A stretch of 57,575 nt of DNA from Acidimicrobiales bacterium (GTDB taxonomy: Bacteria > Actinomycetota > Acidimicrobiia > Acidimicrobiales > CADCSY01), in the NCBI GenBank assembly GCA_040905815.1, contig JBBDQT010000001.1, positions 1 through 57,575 of the forward strand. Reading direction: 5' to 3'. The notes below the pieces were generated by a model. That model was given only the letters and a program-made list of their open reading frames with translations. It made no database searches and was not told where the DNA came from. Position 1 is the first letter of the stretch. Every line of letters begins with the position of its first letter. Below are positions 5,095 to 30,456 of this stretch, piece by piece. A program made the position numbers and the translations under genes.

Positions 5095-7143
5095 TCAGCG
5101 CACCCCCGTCGGCACTCGTTCGGCGTCGTCCGCGGCCAGTGGCGTGCCGGCCTCCTCGGGCGTGCCGGCGGGCAGCACGGCCTGACCGGCAGGGCGTCGG
5201 CGTCGCGTGGGCCACGCCGCCAGGAGCGTGCCGGCGGCCATGATCCCGCCGCCGACCCACAACCAGGAGGCGAGCGGCTCGATGATGACGCCGAGCACGA
5301 TCGGCCCGCCCTCGCGCTCGGGGACGGCGACGAGCGTGAGGTACACGTCGTCCACGGCGCCGACCCGGACCGACGGCGTGCCGATCGTCTGCGTCGCGTT
5401 CGGGAACTGGTTCAGGGCCGGCTCGTACACCTGCCCGCCGTCGACGCGGACGCGCGCGCTGACGAGCGTGCGCTGGGGCGAGACCTGCGGCTCGTTCATT
5501 CCCTCGTACGTGACGGTGTGGCCCGCGATCGACGCGGAGGCACCCTCGGTGAGGGTGAAGGTCGCGCTCGTCGTGTACGAGGAGGCGGCCGTGAAGGCGA
5601 CCGCCACCACGACCACGCCGACGTGCACGATCATCCCGCCGTTCGAGCGCCCGACGAAGGCGCGCAGCAGTGAGGCGCCCTCCCGGCGGGCGGCGGCCAC
5701 GGCGACCACGAGCTGGCGGACGGCGGCGGCCGCGGCGAAGCCCCCGAGGCCGAACGCGAGCAGCGGCGAGATGCCCCGGGCGCCGACCGCCACCGCGGTC
5801 ACGAGGGTGGCGACGCCGACCCACATCGGCCACCGGAGCCGGTGCCACAACAGCTCGCCCGACGCCTTGCGCCACGGCAGGGCGGGTGCGACCGCCATGA
5901 GGAACAGCAGGGCGAGGCCGATCGGCGCCGTCATGCGGTTGAAGTACGGCGTGCCCACCGAGATGCGCTCGTCGTTGACCGCCTCCACGACGAGGGGGAA
6001 CACGGTGCCGAGGAGGACGACGAACGCGAAGGCGGCGAAGAGCAGGTTGTTGAGGAGGAACGCGCCCTCCCGTGACACCGGCGAATCGATGCTGCCGGGC
6101 GAGCGGAGGCGGTCGCCGCGCCAGCCGATCAGGCCGATGGTGACGACGACGGTGGCGGCGAACGCGCCGAGCAGCCACATCCCGATGGGCGACTCGGTGA
6201 AGCTGTGCACGCTGTCGAGGACGCCCGACCGGGTGAGGAACGTGCCGAGGATGGTGAGGCTGAACGTCGCCAGCAGCAGCGACAGGTTCCACACCCGGAG
6301 CATCCCGCGCCGCTCCTGGACCATCACCGAGTGCAGGTACGCGGTGCCGGTCAGCCACGGCAGGAACGACGCGTTCTCCACGGGGTCCCACGCCCAGAAG
6401 CCGCCCCACCCGAGGACCTCGTAGGACCACCACGCGCCGAGGACGATGCCGACCGTGAGGAACCCCCAGGCGAGAAGCGTCCACCGACGGGTCGCCGCCA
6501 GCCAGCCCTCGCCCAGCCGGCCCGTCACGAGGGCGGCCACCGCGAACGCGAACGGGACGGTGAAGCCGACGTAGCCGAGGTAGAGCATCGGCGGGTGGAT
6601 CGCCATGAGCGGGTGGTTCTGCAACAGGGGGTTCGGGCCGGGCCCGTCGGTCGGGATGGCGCCGGCGACGGTCGTGAACGGGTTGGCCGGTCCCGCCATC
6701 AACAGGAAGAAGAACGCGCAGACGACGAGCATGACGAGCGTCGCCCACCCCACGAGGGGGTCGGTGAGCCGGTCCCTGAACTTGACCACCACCCCGACCG
6801 TGAACCCGGCGAGGACAAGGCTCCAGAGGATGATCGACCCCTCGAGGGCGGCCCACAGGGTCGCCACGTTGTAGAGGGCGGGCGTGGCGGTGCTGCCGTT
6901 GCTCGCCACGTACGAGAGGGAGAAGTCCCGGGTGATGAGGGCGCGCTCCATGGCGACGGTGGCGAGCACGGCGCCGGCGAGGACGAGCGATGCGTAGGAC
7001 CGTCCGAGGCGGAGCAGGGCGGACCGCTTGCGGCGGAGGCCCACGGCGAGGGTGAGGATGCCGATGAGGGAAGCGGCGAGGCCGAGGGCGACGCCGGCGG
7101 TGCCGAGAGCTGCGTTCACGAGCGCGCCGCCTCCCCCGGGCAC
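5095..7143 (-). CDS. ccmF: Cytochrome c heme lyase subunit CcmF
   Basis: ORF 5095..7143 (682 aa), polytopic. Tryptophan-rich WWD motif WWSYEVLGWGGFWAWDPVENASFLPWL. The start may be a few codons downstream, because it overlaps the ccmE end by 28 nt. Confidence 0.9.
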   Translation of the reverse strand: MPGGGGALVNAALGTAGVALGLAASLIGILTLAVGLRRKRSALLRLGRSYASLVLAGAVLATVAMERALITRDFSLSYVASNGSTATPALYNVATLWAALEGSIILWSLVLAGFTVGVVVKFRDRLTDPLVGWATLVMLVVCAFFFLLMAGPANPFTTVAGAIPTDGPGPNPLLQNHPLMAIHPPMLYLGYVGFTVPFAFAVAALVTGRLGEGWLAATRRWTLLAWGFLTVGIVLGAWWSYEVLGWGGFWAWDPVENASFLPWLTGTAYLHSVMVQERRGMLRVWNLSLLLATFSLTILGTFLTRSGVLDSVHSFTESPIGMWLLGAFAATVVVTIGLIGWRGDRLRSPGSIDSPVSREGAFLLNNLLFAAFAFVVLLGTVFPLVVEAVNDERISVGTPYFNRMTAPIGLALLFLMAVAPALPWRKASGELLWHRLRWPMWVGVATLVTAVAVGARGISPLLAFGLGGFAAAAAVRQLVVAVAAARREGASLLRAFVGRSNGGMIVHVGVVVVAVAFTAASSYTTSATFTLTEGASASIAGHTVTYEGMNEPQVSPQRTLVSARVRVDGGQVYEPALNQFPNATQTIGTPSVRVGAVDDVYLTLVAVPEREGGPIVLGVIIEPLASWLWVGGGIMAAGTLLAAWPTRRRRPAGQAVLPAGTPEEAGTPLAADDAERVPTGVR

Positions 7144-7658
7144 TGCTCCAGCTTTGCCAGCTCGAGGCGGTCCGCCTCCTCGGTCCGGTACTCCGAGGTG
7201 TGGCGCACGAGGATCCGGTCGCTCTCGTACACGAGCCCGCCACCGGCGTAAGAGCCTTCGAGAACCACCGGGATGCCCTCCCTGAACAGCTCGGGCGGGT
7301 CGCCGCGGTGGCGGACGGGCACGAAGGCGCAGTCGTAGGCCACCTGGAACACGACCGCCTCGCCGTCCTGGCGGACCGATCCCTCGACCACCGTGCCCTG
7401 GAGGCGGAACCGGTCGTCACCGAGGCGCGCCCGGTCTGCGACAGCCTCGTCGGCGTTGCGGAAGTACGTCGTGGCCGAGCCGAGGCCCTGAAGCAGCAGG
7501 AAGGCGATGGCGCCGGCGATGACGGCGACGACGAGGCCGAGCCTGAGCCGGTTCCGCTCGAAGGTCCGACCGCGTCGCGCCCGGCCCGCCTCGGCGAAGG
7601 GTCGGATGTCGTCGTCGTCGCGGTCGACGTCGAGGTCATCGCTTCCGGGCAGTGTCAT
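7116..7658 (-). CDS. ccmE: Heme chaperone CcmE
   Basis: ORF 7116..7658. Single N-terminal TM, OB-fold-like core (RFRLQGTVVEGSV) and heme-binding HxxxY motif VRHTSEY near the C-terminus. Confidence 0.85.
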   Translation of the reverse strand: MTLPGSDDLDVDRDDDDIRPFAEAGRARRGRTFERNRLRLGLVVAVIAGAIAFLLLQGLGSATTYFRNADEAVADRARLGDDRFRLQGTVVEGSVRQDGEAVVFQVAYDCAFVPVRHRGDPPELFREGIPVVLEGSYAGGGLVYESDRILVRHTSEYRTEEADRLELAKLEQCPGEAARS

Positions 7659-23059: not shown

Positions 23060-23429
23060 CAGACGGGCGTGCTCGGAAAGCTCATCGCTGAACGCTACGC
23101 AGGCCCGGTGACAGTGACGACTGCTGTCCAGCCAGCTCCTCGGGGACGACCGGGGCGCGGCCTCAAGCCAGCCGCCTGCCGCTCGCGAAGGAATGGTCGG
23201 TGCGCCGGGACCCAGATCCCTGGCTGCTCGCCTGGCGGCCCGGCCAGCGCGACTACCGGCACGCAGTCGGGGAGCTACGTGTCGGTCGTGATGTCATCCC
23301 AGGCCGGACCGCCGTACCCGATGAGCCAGTCGAGTGCGTAGTGCCGCTCCATGACGACGCCGGCATCAAGTCCTTCAACGACCTCGCCCCGGAGCCGTGC
23401 GTAGTCCCGATGCCTGCTGTCGCCGCCGG

Positions 23430-23753
23430 TCAGGTCGGCGTGGTGATCAGGCCGGGGGCCGCAGCGGCGGGGGCCGGGCCTCGCTGGCGTCGGTCGGCGG
23501 AGGGCTCGGAGGCGCCGGTCGGCTCATCGTCCCCGTCACCGGGGACCGCGCCGGGGCGCTCCGGAGCGACGACCCGGTAGCCCGTCACGAGGTGGTCCAA
23601 CCCGCGGGCGGCGGCCCACGTGAGCACCAGGGCGAGGCCGTAGCGGGCGCCCGCCGAGCCGAGCGGGACGTCGCCCCGGAGGGCGTCGAGGAGCACCGGC
23701 CCGCAGAGCACGAGGGACACGACCATGACGAGGGACCGGCGCTGCGGGCTCAC
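23430..23753 (-). CDS. Small membrane protein (2 TM, P/D-rich tail), last gene of the flagellar operon
   Basis: ORF 23430..23753. GTG 23753 forms a GTGA overlap with the PilZ gene stop. SLVMVVSLVLCGPVLL and YGLALVLTWAAARGL are hydrophobic segments. Confidence 0.5.
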   Translation of the reverse strand: MSPQRRSLVMVVSLVLCGPVLLDALRGDVPLGSAGARYGLALVLTWAAARGLDHLVTGYRVVAPERPGAVPGDGDDEPTGASEPSADRRQRGPAPAAAAPGLITTPT

Positions 23754-24364
23754 GGTCGCGACCGGGCGCGCTCGAGGGCCTGGCGCCGGAAGACGTAGGC
23801 CCGGATCCGGTCCGCGTCACGGCCCGGCAACCCGGTGAAGCGGCAGCCCGCGTGGACCCGCCCGCCGAGCTCGTGGACCCGCACGACGTCGCAGCCGACC
23901 TCGAGCGTGGATCCCTCGAGCTCGAAGCGCAGCGTCACCCGCGCCTCCGCCGCGAGCGGGGCAGGCGGGCGGGCGACGACGTGGGCACCGCCCTCGCTGA
24001 GGTCCACCAGGCGTGCAGGGGTGGCGGAGCCGGCGGTGAGCACGGTGGCGGCGGTCAGGTTGAGGGCCCGGACGTGGGAGCGCCGCTGGTCCGACGTCGC
24101 CGGGCCGTCCGCCCTGAGCCGCCAGTGCGGCACCGGGTGGGCCCCGACGGCGACGAGCGTCGTCGCCAGGTGCTGCGGGCCGAACGTCCCGACCCAGGTC
24201 AGCGTCACCCGGTCGCCCACCGGCGGCGGGGTGCGCGCCGGGGGGGACGGATCGGCCACGGTCACCTCCGTGGGCTCGACGTCCTCGATGCGCGTCGAGA
24301 GCGCCTCGTCCCACCCGGTGACCTCGATCCCGACCACCGCGTTCACCGCGAGCGTCGCGAGCAT
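23750..24364 (-). CDS. PilZ-domain c-di-GMP receptor, YcgR/MotI-like two-domain architecture
   Basis: C-terminal 204 aa of ORF 23750..25126, from ATG 24364 (ATGA overlap with the flhF-like stop). PilZ motifs QRRSHVR (RxxxR) and DLSEGG (DxSxxG) with canonical spacing. N-terminal beta-rich domain. Confidence 0.8.
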   Translation of the reverse strand: MLATLAVNAVVGIEVTGWDEALSTRIEDVEPTEVTVADPSPPARTPPPVGDRVTLTWVGTFGPQHLATTLVAVGAHPVPHWRLRADGPATSDQRRSHVRALNLTAATVLTAGSATPARLVDLSEGGAHVVARPPAPLAAEARVTLRFELEGSTLEVGCDVVRVHELGGRVHAGCRFTGLPGRDADRIRAYVFRRQALERARSRP

Positions 24365-25614
24365 CAGCTCGCCAGCCGCTCGACGAGCAGGGCCGTCCAC
24401 GCCGCGGGCGTGCTGCGGCGACCCTCGACCGAGGCGATGGGCAGGCCTGCGCCGAGCATGGACGCGGGGCTCACGGTCTCCGCGCACGCGCCGACCGCGA
24501 GGGCGGAGACCCCGCCGATGGCGGCTGCCCAGGTGGCGACGTCCTCGGGCTTGCGGTCCGCCCGCACCGCGGCCCACACCGCCACCGGCTCGAGGGCGGC
24601 GATCATCTCCTGCACCCACATCCGGCCGGCGGCGCTGTCGTTCGCGCACACCGCCACGACCGTGGGGGAGCAGCTGCGCCAGGCGGGACGGCGGACGGCG
24701 GCCTCCTCGGGACCGCGCAGCGAGTTCACGCCGGCGCGACCGGCGCCGGCGACGACCACGTCGCCCGGCACCTGCCCGAGCTGGGCCGCGGCCACGCCGG
24801 CGGCCTGGATCGCCACCGCTCGCTCCCCGACCACGACCACGACGTCGCCACGGTCGACGATCAGCGGCGGCGGCGGCACCAGCAGCTGCTCGAGGGTGGC
24901 GAGGACCTGCTGGGCCTCGCTGCCGGTGCCTTGGACGCTGGCGAGGAGGTCCTGGGGGACGCCGAGCGCCCGCAGCGACGCCAGCAGCGCGGCGTCGGGC
25001 CGGGAGCCCGCAGGGGCCGCGTCGGCGCGTGGCGCCGGCGCCGCGGGCGGGGGCCCGGCCGGCGCTGCGACCGGCGCCGCGCGCGGGGGCTCGGCCGGCG
25101 CCGCACGGGTCGACACGACGGGCCACACGACCGGCGCGACGACGGGCATGGCAGCAGGAGGAGCGGTCCGGCCGTCGAGGTCGGAGACGGGCCGCTCGGA
25201 CTCGAGGTCGGTTAGCCCGGCCTCGCCGACCAGGCCCCGCAGCACCTCCTGGAAGGTCCTGCCCTCGGTGGACGGCGCGTAGGGCGCGTGCCCGGACGGG
25301 GGGCGCACCGTCGCCGCAGCCGAGGGGGCGGCCTGGCGCTCCACGTCGCTCACCTGGTCGGCGAGATCGAGGATCGAGCGCGGCGTGGCGGCGGCCGGTG
25401 GCTCGCCCACCTCTGTCCTACCCACCTCGGTCGGGTCGGCGTGCTCCGGGAGCTCCACGAGGACCTCGAAGCGCTCACGGGCGAAGAAGCCGCCGAGCCC
25501 ACCGGTTCGCACCTTCTCGGCGCTGAGGATCCGCGCCGCGGAGCCGTGCTCGTCGGTCACCCGGGCCAGAGCGGCCTCGAGGGTGTCGCCGTCAAACGTT
25601 CGCTGTGCTGGCAA
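24364..25614 (-). CDS. FlhF-like protein with a degenerate (motif-less) SRP-GTPase domain
   Basis: ORF 24364..25614. The N-terminus MPAQRTFDGDTLEAALARVTDEHGSAARILSAEKVRTGGLGGFF matches the FlhF B-domain start, followed by a P/A-rich linker. The C-terminal domain occupies the NG position, but G1 reads VVVVVGERAVAIQAAG, with no GxxGxGK[ST]. Position after flhA is syntenic with flhF. Confidence 0.6.
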   Translation of the reverse strand: MPAQRTFDGDTLEAALARVTDEHGSAARILSAEKVRTGGLGGFFARERFEVLVELPEHADPTEVGRTEVGEPPAAATPRSILDLADQVSDVERQAAPSAAATVRPPSGHAPYAPSTEGRTFQEVLRGLVGEAGLTDLESERPVSDLDGRTAPPAAMPVVAPVVWPVVSTRAAPAEPPRAAPVAAPAGPPPAAPAPRADAAPAGSRPDAALLASLRALGVPQDLLASVQGTGSEAQQVLATLEQLLVPPPPLIVDRGDVVVVVGERAVAIQAAGVAAAQLGQVPGDVVVAGAGRAGVNSLRGPEEAAVRRPAWRSCSPTVVAVCANDSAAGRMWVQEMIAALEPVAVWAAVRADRKPEDVATWAAAIGGVSALAVGACAETVSPASMLGAGLPIASVEGRRSTPAAWTALLVERLAS

Positions 25615-27634
25615 GGGTCACCACTCCGATGGTCTCGACGACGAGGTTGGGGCTGAGCTCGGCATAGGACAGGACGGGCAGCCGCGGCGCCGCGCCGGCG
25701 ACGAGGCGCCGGAGGGCGGGCCGCAGTGCGGCGGAGCAGACGAGCACCGGCTGCTCGCCCCGCTGCTCGGCCGTCTCGGCGCGCTGGGCGACCTCGATGG
25801 CGAGGCGTTCGATCTGGCTCGGGTCGAGGGCCAGGAACGGCCCCTGCTCGCCGTGGCGCAGCGACTCCAGCAGGGAGTGCTCGACGAGGGGATCCAGTGT
25901 CACGGCCGCGAGCCGGCCGTCGGTCGCAAGGGAGGAGGAGATGGCGGGGCCGAGCGCGGCTCGCGCCGCTTCGGTGAGGCCGTCGGCGTCCTTGGTCACC
26001 CGGGCCCGCTCGGACAGCGCCTCGAAGATGCGGACCAGGTCCCGGACCGGCACGCCCTCTGCGAGCAGGCCCTGGAGCACCCGTTGGATCTCGCCGAGGC
26101 CGAGCAGCGCGGGCGTCAGCTCCTCCACCACCGCCGGGTCGCCGGCCTTGACCATGTCGACGAGCGCCTTGGTGTCCTGGCGGGACAGCAGCCGCCCGGC
26201 GTTCTGCCGCACGACCTCGGCGAGGTGGGTGGTGAGGACGGAGGAGCGATCCACGACGGTGGCGCCGGCGAGCTCGGCCTGCTGGCGGAGCTCCACGGGC
26301 ACCCACCGGGCGGCCAGGCCGAAGACCGGCTCCACCGTGGCGGTGCCGGGCAGGCCCGCGAGGTCGTCCCCGATCGCGAGCACCATGCCGGTGGGCGCCT
26401 CGCCCCGGCCCATCTCCACGCCGTGGATCTTGATGGCGTAGGTGCGGGCGGGCAGCTCGAGGTTGTCACGGGTGCGCACGGGCGGGATGACGACCCCGAG
26501 GTCCATGGCGATCTTCCGGCGCAGGGCCCGGACCCGGTCCAGCAGGTCGCCGCCGGCAGCCGGGTCGACGAGGTCCACGAGGTCGAACGCCAGCTCGAGC
26601 TCGAGCGGCTCGACCCGCATCTCCAGCGCCAGGGCCTCGGGCGAGTCGGGGGCGTGGGCGGGCGGCTCGTCGGCGTCGTCGTCGGCGACGAGCTCGGCGA
26701 CATCGGGGATGCGGCTGGCGAAGAGGAAGATGAGCCCGCCCACGAGGAGGAACGGCACCTTGGGCAGGCCGGGGACGATGGCGAGGCCCATGACCGCGCC
26801 GGCGCCGATGCGCAGCGACTGCCGCTGGGCGGCGAACTGGCGGAGCATGTCCGTCCCGAGGTCGTCCTCGGTGGCCGAGCGGGTCACGATGATGCCGGCC
26901 GAGAGCGAGATCAGCAGCGCCGGGATCTGGGAGACGAGCCCGTCGCCGATGGTGAGGATGCTGTAGGTGGAGATCGCCTCGCCGATCGGCATGCCGCTCT
27001 GGACCACGCCGATGACGAAGCCGCCGAAGAGGTTGATCAGGGTGATGACGATGCCGGCGATGGCGTCGCCCTTCACGAACTTCGACGCCCCGTCCATGGC
27101 GCCGTAGAAGTCCGCTTCGGCCGCCACGTCGGACCGGCGGCGGCGGGCCTGGTCGTCGGTGATGAGGCCGGCGTTGAGGTCGGCGTCGATGGCCATCTGC
27201 TTGCCCGGCATGGCGTCGAGCGTGAAGCGGGCGCCGACCTCGGCGACGCGCCCCGCGCCGTTCGTGATGACGAGGAACTGGATCACGATGAGGATCAGGA
27301 AGATGACGAGGCCGACGACGAGCGACCCACCGATCACGAAGTTCCCGAACGCCTCGACGACCTTGCCGGCGAAGCCGTCCAGCAGCACGAGCCTGGTCGA
27401 GCTCACGTTGAGGGCGAGGCGGAACATCGTGGCGACGAGCAGCAGCGACGGGAACACGGCGAAGTCGAGCGGCCGCTTCACCTGCAGGCTGATGAGCAGC
27501 ACCAGCACCGCCAGGGCGATGTTGCACACGAAGAGGAGGTCGAGGAGGAAGGCCGGGAGCGGGACCACCATCATCACCACGACGGAGACGATGGCGATCG
27601 GGATGCCGATCTGGCCGGTGCGGCTGCGGGTCAC
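25592..27634 (-). CDS. flhA: Flagellar export gate protein FlhA
   Basis: ORF 25592..27634 (680 aa, GTG start). 8-TM N-domain with the conserved FHIPEP-type region (FVKGDAIAGIVITLINLFGG) and a large cytoplasmic C-domain. Confidence 0.95.
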   Translation of the reverse strand: MTRSRTGQIGIPIAIVSVVVMMVVPLPAFLLDLLFVCNIALAVLVLLISLQVKRPLDFAVFPSLLLVATMFRLALNVSSTRLVLLDGFAGKVVEAFGNFVIGGSLVVGLVIFLILIVIQFLVITNGAGRVAEVGARFTLDAMPGKQMAIDADLNAGLITDDQARRRRSDVAAEADFYGAMDGASKFVKGDAIAGIVITLINLFGGFVIGVVQSGMPIGEAISTYSILTIGDGLVSQIPALLISLSAGIIVTRSATEDDLGTDMLRQFAAQRQSLRIGAGAVMGLAIVPGLPKVPFLLVGGLIFLFASRIPDVAELVADDDADEPPAHAPDSPEALALEMRVEPLELELAFDLVDLVDPAAGGDLLDRVRALRRKIAMDLGVVIPPVRTRDNLELPARTYAIKIHGVEMGRGEAPTGMVLAIGDDLAGLPGTATVEPVFGLAARWVPVELRQQAELAGATVVDRSSVLTTHLAEVVRQNAGRLLSRQDTKALVDMVKAGDPAVVEELTPALLGLGEIQRVLQGLLAEGVPVRDLVRIFEALSERARVTKDADGLTEAARAALGPAISSSLATDGRLAAVTLDPLVEHSLLESLRHGEQGPFLALDPSQIERLAIEVAQRAETAEQRGEQPVLVCSAALRPALRRLVAGAAPRLPVLSYAELSPNLVVETIGVVTLASTANV

Positions 27635-27752: not shown

Positions 27753-28583
27753 TCAGCGCCCGAGGGCGATCAGGTCTGCGAGGCCCTCGACGCGGCGCTC
27801 CACCCGCAGGCACAGGTCGTCCGCCAGCCGCTCGGCGATGCCGACCGCGCGCAAGGCCGCCTCGAGCGGCCGGCTCGGCTCCTGGGCCCGGCCCTGGCCG
27901 AGGCGTCCGACCACCGACTCGGCGGCGACGAGCACCGAGGCGAGCGTCCGGGGAGCGGCGGGCTCGACGTCGTGGTGGGCGGCGACGGCCGCCACCACGT
28001 CCTCCGGCAGCCGCGCGACCGCCAGCGCCCTGGCGCCGAGGTCCGGGTGGTCGCAGCCGAACCGCTCACGCTCCCACTCGAGGGCGTCGTGACCGAGGGT
28101 CGTCTGGGCCAGGTCGCGCCAGGCGGTGGGATCGCGACGAGCCTGCAGGATGGCCCCCATGTCGTGGAGGAGCCCCAGGGAGAACGCGTGCTCCCGATCC
28201 ACCCCGACCCGCTCCGCGATGACCGACGCCGCTGCTGCGGTGCCGACGGCATGCGGCCAGAAGTCATCGACCTGGTCACCGTCCGCTCGCTCGAAGAGGC
28301 CGAAGGCGGCGCCCGCCACGAGGGTTCGCACGACGGTCAGGCCGAGGATGGGCACCGCCCTCGCCGAGCTGGCGACCCGCTCGCGGAGGCCGTAGAACGA
28401 GGAGTTGGCGAGGAAGACCGCGCGCGTCGACAGCGCGAGGTCGAGGTCCATCATGCGACCGACCTCGGCGGCCGACGTCACCTCCCCGTCGAGGCGCTGC
28501 AGCACCTGGACGGCCACCACCGAGGCCACGGGGACGCCCATGACCTCCTCCAGCTCCACACCGTCGACCATTCCGTCGCTCAT
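27753..28583 (-). CDS. HDOD-domain signalling protein
   Basis: ORF 27753..28583. ...LALSTRAVFLANSSFYGLRERVASSARAVPILGL...FWPHAVGTAAAASVIAERVG...AFSLGLLHDMGAIL matches the HDOD pattern. 4-nt overlap with the flhB stop. Confidence 0.8.
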   Translation of the reverse strand: MSDGMVDGVELEEVMGVPVASVVAVQVLQRLDGEVTSAAEVGRMMDLDLALSTRAVFLANSSFYGLRERVASSARAVPILGLTVVRTLVAGAAFGLFERADGDQVDDFWPHAVGTAAAASVIAERVGVDREHAFSLGLLHDMGAILQARRDPTAWRDLAQTTLGHDALEWERERFGCDHPDLGARALAVARLPEDVVAAVAAHHDVEPAAPRTLASVLVAAESVVGRLGQGRAQEPSRPLEAALRAVGIAERLADDLCLRVERRVEGLADLIALGR

Positions 28584-29689
28584 GCTCCGAGCGCGAGCGT
28601 CGGCGCCGGCAGCCGGTGCGTGCCGGACGCGCTCCCGCGCCGCCGCAGGGCGTAGATGAACGCGAGCACGCGCGCCACCGCGTCGTACAGCTCGGCGGGG
28701 ATCGCCTGGTTGAGGTCACAGGCCTTGAACACGGCTCGGGCGAGGGGGATGTCCTCCACCATCGGCACGCGCGCCTCCTCAGCGGCGGCGCGGATGCGGG
28801 CTGCCACCTCACCGGCGCCCTTGGCGACGACGCGGGGCGCGCCGCTCGTGGCGTCGTACTTGAGGGCGACGGCCACGTGGGTCGGGTTGACGAGCACGAC
28901 GTCAGCGGTCCCCACCTCCGACATCATCCGGTTCCGGCTCATCGACAGCTGCCGGGACCGCATGGCGCCCCGCATGTGCGGGTCGCCGTCCTGCTGGCGC
29001 TGCTCGTCGCGGACCTCCTGCTTCGTCATCTTCATCCCCTTCGCCGTCCGCCGTCGCTGGAGCCCGTAGTCGACGAGCGCGAGGACCAAGCCTGCCAGAG
29101 CCACGTTCCTGGCGAGGCCGAGGGCGCGGGAGCCGACCAGTGCCATCGTGGTCACGACCGGCTGCTGCCCACCGGCCACGAGGACCGGGACGATGTCCAT
29201 GATGGACCGGTAGGCGAGGAACCCGAGGATCATCGCCTTGGCCAGCGTCTTGCCCGCCTCCCAGGCGCTGTGGGGGGAGAACAACCGCTTGAAGCCCTTG
29301 AACGGGTTGATGCGCTCGACCTTCGGCTTGAGCAGCTTTCCCGAGGGGGCCCAGCCCACCTGGAGCAGGTTCATGAGGATGCCGAGGGCCATCAGGCCGA
29401 AGGCGAGCGGCGCCACGACGATGATCCCGCTCACCAGCCCGTCGCCGAGGAGGCCGATCGCCGGCCCCGGCTCCGGCTCGGGCGAGGCCATGAGGTCGCC
29501 TGCATCGATCAGGAGGGCGCGCATCCGGCCGGCGCCCGACGCCATCGTCAGCTGGAGGAGGTAGGTGGCCACGAACATCGCCGTCCAGCTGCCGAGCTCG
29601 GCGGACCGGGGGATGCGCCCCTCCTTGCGGGCATCGCGCTTGCGCTTCGGTGTTGGGTCCTCCGTCTTGTCGCCCGACGGCTTGCTCAT
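28580..29689 (-). CDS. flhB: Flagellar export apparatus switch protein FlhB
   Basis: ORF 28580..29689. N-terminus SGDKTEDPTPKRKRDARKEGRIPRS, 4 TM, autocleavage motif VLVNPTHVAVAL (NPTH). Confidence 0.95.
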   Translation of the reverse strand: MSKPSGDKTEDPTPKRKRDARKEGRIPRSAELGSWTAMFVATYLLQLTMASGAGRMRALLIDAGDLMASPEPEPGPAIGLLGDGLVSGIIVVAPLAFGLMALGILMNLLQVGWAPSGKLLKPKVERINPFKGFKRLFSPHSAWEAGKTLAKAMILGFLAYRSIMDIVPVLVAGGQQPVVTTMALVGSRALGLARNVALAGLVLALVDYGLQRRRTAKGMKMTKQEVRDEQRQQDGDPHMRGAMRSRQLSMSRNRMMSEVGTADVVLVNPTHVAVALKYDATSGAPRVVAKGAGEVAARIRAAAEEARVPMVEDIPLARAVFKACDLNQAIPAELYDAVARVLAFIYALRRRGSASGTHRLPAPTLALGA

Positions 29690-30456
29690 GCCCCGAACAG
29701 CTCTACGATGGCGTTCCCGGTGCGGACGCTCCGCTCGGCGAGCGCGTGGACGACCGCTGGTAGCACGGGCAGCACGAGGCCCACGAGCCCGAGCGTCAGG
29801 AGGATCTTGAGCGGGAAGCCGAGGATGAAGACGTTCATCTGGGGAGCGGCGCGCGAGAGCAGCCCGAGCCCGACCTCGGCCAGGAACAGCGCGGCCAGGA
29901 GCGGCGCGGCGATCTCGACGGCGGCGAGCATGAAGGTGCCGAGGCCGTCGACGTTGACCTCTGCCAGCCGTCCGAGCGGGGGCAGCCGCAGGCCGACGGC
30001 GTCGAACGACGTCATGAAGCCACGGAACAGCAGGATGTGGCCGTTGATGGCGAACAGCAGCGTGACGGCCAGCAGCTGGTAGAAGCGGCCGAACACCGAC
30101 GTCTGCGTCCCGCTCAGCGGGTCGAACGCCTGGGCGATGGTGAAGCCCGCGAACATGTCGATCAGGTCGCCTGCGGCCTGGACGGCAGCGAGGGCCAGCA
30201 TGGTGATGAAGCCGAGCGCCAGACCGACCCCGACCTGCAGGACGATGGCCCCGATGAGCGACGGCACGTCCAGCGACGGTGGCGACGCAGCCAGCCGGGG
30301 CGCGGCAGGCAGCGCGAGCGCGGCGGCGAGGCCGATCTTGACCGGTGCCGGGATGGCGCGGGTGCTGAACGGGGGCAGGAGCACCAACCAGGCGCTCGCC
30401 CGGACGATGCCGAGCACGAAGGCCACGATGAGCGCGGCGGGCGCCTCGATGGTCAC
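29686..30456 (-). CDS. fliR: Flagellar export apparatus protein FliR
   Basis: ORF 29686..30456. Polytopic membrane protein between fliQ and flhB. 4-nt overlap with flhB. Confidence 0.9.
   Translation of the reverse strand: MTIEAPAALIVAFVLGIVRASAWLVLLPPFSTRAIPAPVKIGLAAALALPAAPRLAASPPSLDVPSLIGAIVLQVGVGLALGFITMLALAAVQAAGDLIDMFAGFTIAQAFDPLSGTQTSVFGRFYQLLAVTLLFAINGHILLFRGFMTSFDAVGLRLPPLGRLAEVNVDGLGTFMLAAVEIAAPLLAALFLAEVGLGLLSRAAPQMNVFILGFPLKILLTLGLVGLVLPVLPAVVHALAERSVRTGNAIVELFGA

What the first reader, a model, noticed from the sequence alone, without database searches (positions are those of the whole stretch)
23430..24364. YcgR/MotI-like PilZ receptor and a translationally coupled 2-TM protein occupy the flhG slot at the operon end
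The PilZ gene has canonical c-di-GMP motifs (QRRSHVR ... DLSEGG) and a preceding beta-rich domain, the architecture of the flagellar brake/clutch proteins YcgR and MotI. It starts on an ATGA overlap with the flhF-like gene and ends on a GTGA overlap with a 107-aa membrane protein of unknown family. Co-translation with the export-gate genes implies stoichiometric incorporation or an assembly-stage role rather than a free-standing brake. The coupled membrane partner is unexplained.
Basis: partly seen in the sequence, partly recalled or inferred. Interest (0 to 1): 0.6.

Follow-up and report, generated by a model that had tools for sequence, protein, structure and literature searches.

The report
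Flagellar c-di-GMP sensor plus membrane partner
The last two genes of this actinobacterial flagellar operon encode an ordinary MotI/YcgR-type c-di-GMP sensor and a small, undescribed membrane protein that turns out to be the conserved companion of a GTPase-dead FlhF-like protein, not of the sensor.

Summary
On the minus strand, 23750-24364 encodes a 204-aa PilZ protein (QRRSHVR, DLSEGG). 23430-23753 encodes a 107-aa membrane protein whose GTG overlaps the PilZ stop. One detail is wrong: the flhF-like/PilZ junction is TGATG (1 nt shared), not ATGA.

The PilZ protein belongs to the two-barrel MotI/YcgR group. The family profile hits MotI (5vx6, E 8e-15) and the model's best Foldseek match is MotI (TM about 0.7).

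The small ORF is a real gene of a family absent from Pfam, NCBIfam and PDB. In 301 genomes of the window's class (likely Acidimicrobiia) it occurs in 23 of 36 FlhA-positive genomes and in none of 265 others, always just downstream of flhA.

In most of those genomes it directly follows the flhF-like gene, with no PilZ between. The flhF-like/PilZ/small-protein triad occurs in the window's family, in three other actinobacterial genomes and in Motilibacter deserti.

The FlhF-like protein has an SRP-GTPase fold but no P-loop. No FlhG-type ATPase lies on the contig.

Stop/start overlaps are the rule in this operon, so they do not argue for stoichiometric incorporation.

Best reading: a c-di-GMP-responsive flagellar inhibitor sits between a pseudo-FlhF and its probable membrane anchor. 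Targets are inferred.

The parts
24364..25614 (-). flhF-like gene (416 aa): FlhF B-domain at the N-terminus, SRP-GTPase-fold C-terminal domain without a P-loop (pseudo-GTPase)
   Evidence: No Pfam hit. TIGR03499 FlhF matches the N-terminus only, E 4.7e-9. The family profile hits the FlhF B-domain fragment 9en1, E 0.01. AF2 pLDDT 81.5. Foldseek top 50 are all SRP54/Ffh/FtsY/SR-alpha GTPase (NG-domain) structures, E about 1e-7. None of 50 homologues has a Walker A at the G1 position.
23750..24364 (-). xPilZ-PilZ c-di-GMP receptor gene (204 aa), MotI/YcgR type
   Evidence: PF07238 62.6 bits. Family profile hits MotI/YpfA 5vx6, E 8e-15, over both domains. AF2 pLDDT 94. Foldseek best match is MotI, TM 0.68-0.72. 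dN/dS 0.20-0.25 against close relatives.
24068..24088 (-). QRRSHVR: RRxxxR c-di-GMP-binding motif in the inter-domain linker (residues 93-99)
   Evidence: Q93, R94, R95 and R99 invariant or nearly so in 106 homologues. Kept in 15 of 15 flhF-linked loci.
23987..24004 (-). [quoted passage not shown]
   Evidence: Kept in 14 of 15 flhF-linked loci; Motilibacter reads DLGEGG. Motif definition from bioRxiv 10.1101/814665.
23430..23753 (-). Small membrane protein gene (107 aa): TM1, short loop, second hydrophobic helix ending in a conserved Tyr, then a Pro/acid-rich disordered tail. Undescribed family.
   Evidence: GC3 0.935. 28 clusters in 5.8 billion proteins, all unnamed and without Pfam. Present in 23 of 36 FlhA-positive and 0 of 265 FlhA-negative class genomes. 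In-frame indels and an ATG or GTG start at the same position in relatives; dN/dS 0.57-0.65. No hit in PDB or NCBIfam.
23682..23732 (-). First transmembrane segment of the small protein (residues 8-24)
   Evidence: Kyte-Doolittle mean 2.35 over 17 residues.
23580..23642 (-). Second hydrophobic segment (residues 38-58) with family-conserved R37, A41 and Y59 at its borders. Weakly hydrophobic in this genome.
   Evidence: Kyte-Doolittle 1.26 here against 2.2-2.6 in most homologues. Invariant columns.
23290..23400 (-). Start-less remnant of the C-terminal end of a DUF4272 gene, just beyond the operon end
   Evidence: PF14094 E 4.2e-10, profile positions 171-208 of 208. No start codon upstream in frame.

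Best explanation
This is the tail of an actinobacterial flagellar export operon: fliO-P-Q-R, flhB, (HDOD), flhA, flhF-like, PilZ, small membrane protein.

The PilZ protein is a MotI/YcgR-type receptor. It has an N-terminal degenerate PilZ-like barrel and a canonical PilZ barrel with intact RRxxxR and DxSxxG motifs. The inferred mechanism is that at high c-di-GMP it binds the dinucleotide at the inter-domain linker, closes, and inhibits flagellar function. The most likely target is the single MotA stator or the FliG/FliM/FliN switch, as for MotI, YcgR, FlgZ and MotL.

The small hairpin membrane protein is not the sensor's own partner. It is the conserved companion of the FlhF-like protein, which has an SRP-GTPase fold but no P-loop. 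The inferred role is to tether this GTPase-dead FlhF-like protein to the membrane next to the export gate. That would be a job comparable to FipA's for FlhF in gamma-proteobacteria.

In the window's family and a few other actinobacterial lineages the PilZ gene sits between these two genes. In most others it is encoded elsewhere or is absent. Its operon position therefore mainly secures co-expression with the basal-body genes.

Shown: gene reality, folds, motifs, synteny, co-occurrence with flagella. Inferred: c-di-GMP binding, the target, the anchoring role.
For: PilZ identity:
- PF07238 at 62.6 bits.
- 33 of 106 family members hit PilZNR PF12945.
- The family profile hits MotI 5vx6 at E 8e-15 across both domains, then PP4397 and YcgR.
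- The AF2 model has pLDDT 94. Foldseek ranks MotI, VCA0042, YcgR and PP4397 first.
- Motifs are kept in 15/15 and 14/15 linked loci.

Link to flagella:
- Two-domain PilZ homologues occur in 16 of 36 FlhA-positive and 6 of 265 FlhA-negative class genomes, Fisher p 2e-12.

Signalling context:
- The genome has at least 10 GGDEF genes.
- One MotA gene lies on the same contig.

Small protein:
- It is a conserved family found only in FlhA-positive genomes, p 1e-25.
- It lies directly after flhF-like, without PilZ, in loci from several class families and in Actinoplanes.
- The triad occurs in six further loci of five genomes in the window's family, in metagenome contigs, in Motilibacter deserti and in three other phylum genomes.

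FlhF-like protein:
- It has an SRP fold without a P-loop.
- No ParA/MinD ATPase lies on the flagellar contigs.
Against: - No experiment exists on any member.
- The window protein's N-domain does not itself reach any Pfam PilZN or PilZNR threshold.
- The target (MotA, switch or FlhF-like) cannot be told from sequence.
- Conserved stop/start overlap of PilZ with the small gene in 14 of 15 linked loci is compatible with a physical triad, not only with co-expression.
- The small protein evolves fast (dN/dS 0.57-0.65). Its second segment is weakly hydrophobic in this genome.
- Its HMM finds it in only 7 of 54 FlhA-positive genomes of the phylum sample. It is therefore either patchy or too divergent to detect.
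- The anchoring role rests only on gene order and on analogy with FipA.
Confidence: 0.6

Rival explanations
1. The three proteins form one complex. The GTPase-dead FlhF-like protein, held at the membrane by the hairpin protein, is switched by c-di-GMP through the PilZ protein instead of by GTP hydrolysis through FlhG. On this reading the module controls whether, where or how many flagella are assembled, rather than braking finished motors.
For: FlhG is absent from the flagellar contigs and the FlhF-like protein lacks a P-loop. The PilZ gene sits exactly between the two conserved partners with overlapping stops and starts in 14 of 15 loci across distant lineages. FlhF binds FliG in other bacteria, and a membrane partner (FipA) is needed for its function (PMC11236974 abstract; PMC11620751).
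Against: Most flagellated genomes of the class keep flhF-like and the small protein without a PilZ gene between them. The pair therefore works without it. Overlaps are the default in this operon. One genus carries an unlinked sister paralogue. No interaction data exist.
Confidence: 0.22
2. The PilZ protein is a c-di-GMP receptor for a non-flagellar output, such as exopolysaccharide or cell-envelope control, and its place in the operon is incidental.
For: The unlinked paralogue in genus g6 lies beside murF/ddl-like genes and an HD-GYP-like gene. Related representatives sit in non-flagellar contexts (L050, L052). Six FlhA-negative genomes carry two-domain homologues.
Against: The position between flhF-like and the small gene is conserved across distant actinobacterial lineages. 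There is strong enrichment in flagellated genomes. The nearest solved relatives are motility regulators.
Confidence: 0.08
3. The 107-aa ORF is a chance open frame in 78% G+C DNA and is not translated.
For: Weak purifying selection (dN/dS 0.57-0.65). A low-complexity tail. No family in any library.
Against: GC3 0.935 in frame. Homologues with invariant or near-invariant R37, A41 and Y59 occur in Acidimicrobiia, Actinoplanes and Motilibacter, always at the same operon position. In-frame indels and conserved start position. Exclusive co-occurrence with FlhA.
Confidence: 0.03

Closest known systems
MotI (DgrA/YpfA) of Bacillus subtilis, PDB 5vx6: PilZNR+PilZ c-di-GMP-dependent clutch acting on MotA
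   Same: Length (about 210 aa). Two beta-barrels with RRxxxR in the linker and DxSxxG in the second barrel, plus a C-terminal helix. It is the best sequence-profile match (E 8e-15) and the best fold match (TM 0.68-0.72).
   Different: Identity is 16-17%. The window protein does not reach the PilZNR HMM itself. Here the gene lies inside the export operon directly after an flhF-like gene. From my own knowledge, not checked here, motI is not part of the B. subtilis fla/che operon. The target is untested.
YcgR (E. coli, 5y6f), FlgZ/PP4397 (Pseudomonas) and PlzD/VCA0042 (Vibrio): flagellar brake-type PilZ proteins
   Same: xPilZ-PilZ architecture and a c-di-GMP site at the linker. All are among the top profile and fold matches.
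   Different: YcgR and PP4397 have the PilZN (PF07317) form of the N-domain with extra helices (10.1101/814665). PF07317 gives no hit here.
FipA (DUF2802) of Vibrio, Shewanella and Pseudomonas: membrane partner that recruits FlhF (PMC11620751)
   Same: A small membrane protein encoded with or just after the flhF operon and found only in genomes with the FlhF system. This is the working model for the role of the 107-aa protein.
   Different: FipA has one TM segment plus a cytoplasmic DUF2802 domain and partners a GTP-hydrolysing FlhF together with FlhG. The protein here is a two-helix hairpin with a disordered tail and no DUF2802 hit. It partners a P-loop-less FlhF-like protein without FlhG. 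No homology was detected.
FlhF/FlhG switch (SRP-type GTPase plus MinD-type ATPase) for flagellar number and place (PMC12826062)
   Same: Gene position after flhA. FlhF B-domain and SRP-type fold in the upstream gene.
   Different: The G1 P-loop is missing in 50 of 50 homologues. No FlhG-type ATPase lies on the contig. Neither the PilZ protein nor the small protein is related to FlhG.
FtgA of Actinoplanes missouriensis: flagellar rotation-arrest protein acting on FliN (PMC11522434)
   Same: Per PMC11522434, it is a characterised actinobacterial regulator that stops flagellar rotation, and its over-expression also blocks flagellation. This shows that one regulator can act at both stages.
   Different: It is an unrelated protein, encoded in a chemotaxis cluster. 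The paper reports identities of 3.5-8.6% with known motility regulators, and c-di-GMP plays no part in its working model.

Membership tests
PilZ domain (PF07238) | Match to the Pfam model above the gathering score | tested here: met
   62.6 bits against a cut-off of 22.5, residues 93-193, full model length.
PilZ domain (PF07238) | RxxxR motif before the barrel and [D/N]hSxxG motif in the barrel | tested here: met
   QRRSHVR (93-99) and DLSEGG (121-126). These columns are invariant or nearly so in 106 homologues.
PilZ domain (PF07238) | Six-stranded beta-barrel followed by a C-terminal alpha-helix | tested here: met
   The AF2 model has strands 99-177 and helix 181-202, pLDDT 94. It superposes on the Alg44 and BcsA PilZ domains with TMt about 0.75.
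PilZ domain (PF07238) | Binds c-di-GMP | not testable with these tools
   Needs DRaCALA or ITC with wild type and R94A/R95A/R99A.
YcgR/MotI-type xPilZ-PilZ flagellar regulators | [quoted passage not shown] | tested here: met
   Model strands 10-85, no helix. Full-length superposition on MotI, VCA0042, YcgR and PP4397. The profile hit to MotI spans both domains.
YcgR/MotI-type xPilZ-PilZ flagellar regulators | N-domain matches Pfam PilZN (PF07317) or PilZNR (PF12945) | tested here: inconclusive
   No hit for the window protein at E <= 0.1. 33 of 106 homologues hit PF12945 and none hit PF07317.
YcgR/MotI-type xPilZ-PilZ flagellar regulators | Genomic association with flagella | tested here: met
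   The gene lies in the flhA operon. Family homologues occur in 16 of 36 FlhA-positive and 6 of 265 FlhA-negative genomes.
YcgR/MotI-type xPilZ-PilZ flagellar regulators | c-di-GMP-dependent binding to MotA or FliG/FliM and inhibition of rotation | not testable with these tools
   Needs two-hybrid or pull-down assays and motility assays in a carrier strain.
   Neither protein has any P-loop family hit. There is no PF13614 match on the window's contig or on G007:C11.
FipA (DUF2802 membrane partner of FlhF) | Single N-terminal TM segment plus a cytoplasmic DUF2802 domain | tested here: not met
   No DUF2802 hit for the window protein or two homologues. Family members have two hydrophobic segments.
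FipA (DUF2802 membrane partner of FlhF) | Physical interaction with FlhF and requirement for its localisation | not testable with these tools
   Only gene order supports it.
FlhF (neighbouring gene, for context) | B-domain, SRP-type NG fold and GTPase motifs G1-G4 | tested here: not met
   The B-domain is met and the fold is met. The G1 P-loop is absent in 50 of 50 homologues. It is an FlhF relative by descent but not a GTPase.

The most novel reading that the evidence does not exclude
Many flagellated Actinomycetota may have replaced the FlhF-FlhG nucleotide switch by a three-part module. Its parts would be a GTPase-dead FlhF scaffold, a dedicated hairpin membrane anchor and, in some lineages, a PilZ subunit. 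Flagellar assembly or placement would then be gated directly by c-di-GMP. A published survey scored FlhF as simply lost in these classes (PMC10746217).
Probability: 0.2. Interest if true: 0.75.

Novelty: new variant of a known kind. Interest (0 to 1): 0.5.

Why it matters
How actinobacteria place, count and stop their flagella is little known. A phylum-wide survey states that c-di-GMP receptors for motility are unknown there and lists FlhF as lost in the later classes (PMC10746217).

This locus gives three concrete candidates:
- a MotI-like c-di-GMP receptor built into the export operon;
- an SRP-fold FlhF relative that cannot hydrolyse GTP;
- a small membrane protein family, absent from Pfam, NCBIfam and PDB, that in the class sample is found only in flagellated genomes.

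All three can be tested in culturable species. Motilibacter deserti has the triad. Actinoplanes has the pair, and genetic tools exist for A. missouriensis.

The PilZ protein by itself is ordinary. The value lies in the conserved pseudo-FlhF/membrane-protein pair and in the optional PilZ insertion.

Tried and rejected
Organism names came only from protein records.
- Single origin of the flhF-linked PilZ genes: the tree is poorly resolved. Linked copies fall in several subclades mixed with representatives of unknown or non-flagellar context. Only the recent duplication in genus g6 is well supported. No claim on ancestry is made.
- Strong purifying selection on the small ORF: not found (omega 0.57-0.65). 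Coding status rests on family conservation instead.
- Homology of the small protein to any known family: none in Pfam, NCBIfam or PDB.
- Terminator or promoter at the operon end: none found by consensus scan.
- Cellulomonas: the gene after flhF-like is a LapA_dom membrane protein with no match to the family. It was not counted.
- A2 and A7 hits weaker than about 1e-5 in the phylum scan lie inside long unrelated frames and were rejected.

Full report
**1. What is in the sequence**

The region is 75-80% G+C, and its genes lie on the minus strand. Reading downstream, the order is:
- fliO (PF04347), fliP, fliQ, then fliR at 29686-30456
- flhB at 28580-29689
- an HDOD gene at 27753-28583
- flhA at 25592-27634 (FHIPEP, 858 bits)
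- a 416-aa flhF-like gene at 24364-25614
- the PilZ gene at 23750-24364
- a 107-aa ORF at 23430-23753

The PilZ protein carries QRRSHVR and DLSEGG. The 107-aa ORF starts with a GTG that overlaps the PilZ stop as GTGA.

The upstream junction reads TGATG.

All three genes show the coding pattern of this genome, with GC3 of 0.92-0.96. Overlapping ORFs in other frames do not.

The genome is a 2.2-Mb, 76%-complete assembly. Source names on close homologues read 'Acidimicrobiales bacterium'. The class name Acidimicrobiia used below is inferred from those names, because the genome tools give only coded ranks.

**2. The PilZ protein**

- Pfam PilZ matches residues 93-193 at 62.6 bits. Neither PilZN nor PilZNR hits the window protein.
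- An exhaustive HMMER search found 597 representative proteins at E <= 1e-10. Most are 200-220 aa and match over the full length.
- Of 106 aligned homologues, all hit PilZ and 33 hit PilZNR (PF12945, the MotI/PlzD type of N-domain).
- The family profile hits B. subtilis MotI/YpfA (5vx6) at E 8e-15 over both domains. PP4397, YcgR and VCA0042 also appear among its 17 matches.
- The AF2 model (pLDDT 94) has two beta-barrels and a C-terminal helix.
- Its best Foldseek matches are MotI (TM 0.68-0.72 over 209 columns), VCA0042, YcgR, PP4397 and MrkH.

In the terms of Galperin and Chou (10.1101/814665) it is an xPilZ-PilZ protein.

**3. The 107-aa ORF is a real gene of an undescribed family**

- A profile of seven syntenic homologues found 28 protein clusters among 5.8 billion. 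All are unnamed or misnamed, and none has a Pfam domain.
- The alignment shows a first hydrophobic helix, a short loop often reading G-D-x-D-L, then an invariant Arg. A second hydrophobic helix ends in an invariant Tyr, followed by an acidic or Pro-rich disordered tail.
- Some members add an Arg-rich N-terminal extension made of (D/E)RR repeats. By the positive-inside rule this places both ends in the cytoplasm.
- In the window's protein the first segment is strongly hydrophobic (2.35). The second is weak (1.26).
- Close relatives at 64-82% identity keep the frame, have only in-frame indels, and start with ATG or GTG at the same position.
- dN/dS is 0.57-0.65, against 0.20-0.26 for PilZ and flhF-like. 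Constraint is therefore weak, and coding status rests mainly on family conservation.
- The family profile hits nothing in PDB or NCBIfam.

**4. Who is partnered with whom**

In six further loci from five genomes of the window's family, the order flhA / flhF-like / PilZ / small gene is kept; flhB upstream was seen where the contig reaches it. The same order appears in metagenome contigs.

A sample of 301 genomes of the class gave a different picture:
- FlhA is present in 36 genomes.
- The small protein is present in 23 of those 36 and in none of the other 265 (Fisher p 1e-25).
- In 22 of the 23 it lies 1.2-1.9 kb downstream of flhA on the same contig.
- Outside the window's family that gap fits the flhF-like gene alone.
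- The loci read show flhA / flhF-like / small gene, with the small gene starting at or overlapping the flhF-like stop.

Flagellated genomes without an HMM hit also carry a small membrane ORF at that place (L048, L034, L030).

Beyond the class:
- Actinoplanes sp. has flhA / flhF-like / 79-aa homologue.
- Motilibacter deserti has the full triad with 4-nt overlaps.
- In a 401-genome phylum sample, three more genomes from two other families have the triad.
- Only 7 of 54 FlhA-positive genomes in that sample gave a credible hit.

The conserved core is thus flhF-like plus the small membrane protein. The PilZ gene is an optional third member inserted between them.

**5. The PilZ gene's position is facultative**

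- Two-domain homologues occur in 16 of 36 FlhA-positive and 6 of 265 FlhA-negative class genomes (p 2e-12). Outside the window's family they are not near flhA.
- Genus g6 has an unlinked sister paralogue (SH-aLRT 99). It lies beside murF/ddl-like genes and near an HD-GYP-like gene.
- Among 15 linked loci, RRxxxR is kept in all and DxSxxG in 14. Stop/start overlap or abutment with the small gene is kept in all 15.
- Such overlaps occur at 9 or more junctions of this operon. They show operon compaction and not a special stoichiometric relation.

**6. FlhF-like and FlhG**

- The 416-aa protein has no Pfam hit and matches TIGR03499 only in its first 99 residues.
- Its homologues, including those of Actinoplanes, Micromonospora, Actinotalea, Cellulomonas and Motilibacter, also lack Pfam domains.
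- The AF2 model (pLDDT 81.5; above 90 for residues 210-416) matches SRP54/Ffh/FtsY/SR-alpha GTPase (NG-domain) structures at E about 1e-7.
- None of 50 homologues has a Walker A at the G1 position. The window reads VVVVGERAV there.
- No ParA/MinD-type ATPase lies on the window's contig or on the flagellar contig of a 98%-complete relative.
- A published survey scored FlhF as absent from these actinobacterial classes (PMC10746217). No paper on this protein or on the small protein was found.

**7. Signalling context**

- The genome holds at least 10 GGDEF genes.
- A single MotA gene lies on the same contig, outside the window.

**8. Mechanism**

Shown:
- an intact MotI-type c-di-GMP receptor is co-transcribed with basal-body genes;
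- a membrane hairpin protein is confined to flagellated genomes and tied to a P-loop-less FlhF relative.

Inferred (confidence 0.6):
- the PilZ protein binds c-di-GMP and inhibits the motor at MotA or the switch, as do MotI, YcgR, FlgZ and MotL (roles summarised in PMC11522434);
- the hairpin protein anchors the FlhF-like scaffold at the membrane, much as FipA does for FlhF (PMC11620751).

The main rival (0.22) is a single triad in which c-di-GMP, through PilZ, replaces the FlhG-driven GTPase cycle and gates assembly or placement. The conserved insertion site favours it. The many PilZ-less pairs weaken it.

**9. Novelty and limits**

The PilZ protein is a new member of a known kind. The pseudo-FlhF/hairpin pair with optional PilZ is a variant of the FlhF system that I could not find described.

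Earlier scan notes point the same way but were not tested here:
- a flagellar-operon PilZ after flhF/flhG is said to be standard in Clostridia-type operons (e1-3900859);
- a similar PilZ plus acidic-tailed two-TM ORF pair was seen in another genome (e1-3325967).

Limits:
- Nothing here is experimental.
- Complex prediction was not possible.
- Detection of a fast-evolving protein of about 100 aa is incomplete.

Noticed in passing
window 24364-25614 (-): The FlhF-like protein has an SRP-GTPase fold but no P-loop in any of 50 homologues, including cultured Actinoplanes, Cellulomonas, Actinotalea, Micromonospora and Motilibacter. A published survey lists FlhF as lost in these classes.
   Followed up: yes
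window 27753-28583 (-): An HDOD/HD-domain gene sits between flhB and flhA and overlaps the flhB stop by 4 nt. The related loci L021 (G007) and L024 (G016) have flhB followed by flhA without it.
   Followed up: partly
window 23290-23400 (-): A start-less fragment matches the last 38 positions of DUF4272 (E 4e-10), directly after the operon's last gene. It is a gene remnant that marks a rearranged operon boundary. Close relatives carry different genes here, for example an OmpR-type regulator in L053.
   Followed up: partly
L023 (G019:C33), and proteins P0010, P0014, P0016-P0020, P0022, P0029, P0030: Many homologues of the small membrane protein carry a 40-70-aa N-terminal extension of Arg-rich (D/E)RR repeats, such as RSGTDRRTGDRRSR...GNERRAGVDRRSGIDRRQNRG. 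Its function is unknown.
   Followed up: no
L026 (G007:C1:345597-346223), L028, L019: Genus g6 has a second, unlinked xPilZ-PilZ paralogue that is sister to the flhF-linked copy. It lies next to murF/ddl-like genes and near an HD-GYP-like membrane protein gene.
   Followed up: partly
L085 (G646:C1:509338-509520): In one genome of another family a 95-aa open frame matching the small protein (A7 profile, E 5e-6) lies only 99 nt after flhA. There is no room for an flhF-like gene between them.
   Followed up: no
L078 (Motilibacter deserti, 6650-7288): The flhF-linked PilZ protein of this cultured species reads DLGEGG instead of DxSxxG. It may therefore bind c-di-GMP differently or not at all.
   Followed up: no
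genomes G001 and G002 (same genus as the window): Neither same-genus genome gave a hit for the PilZ protein or the small protein. Whether they lack the whole flagellar cluster was not checked.
   Followed up: no
window 23430-44392 (-): At least nine gene junctions of the flagellar operon are 4-nt (or 1- or 23-nt) stop/start overlaps. Overlap is the default layout of this operon.
   Followed up: yes
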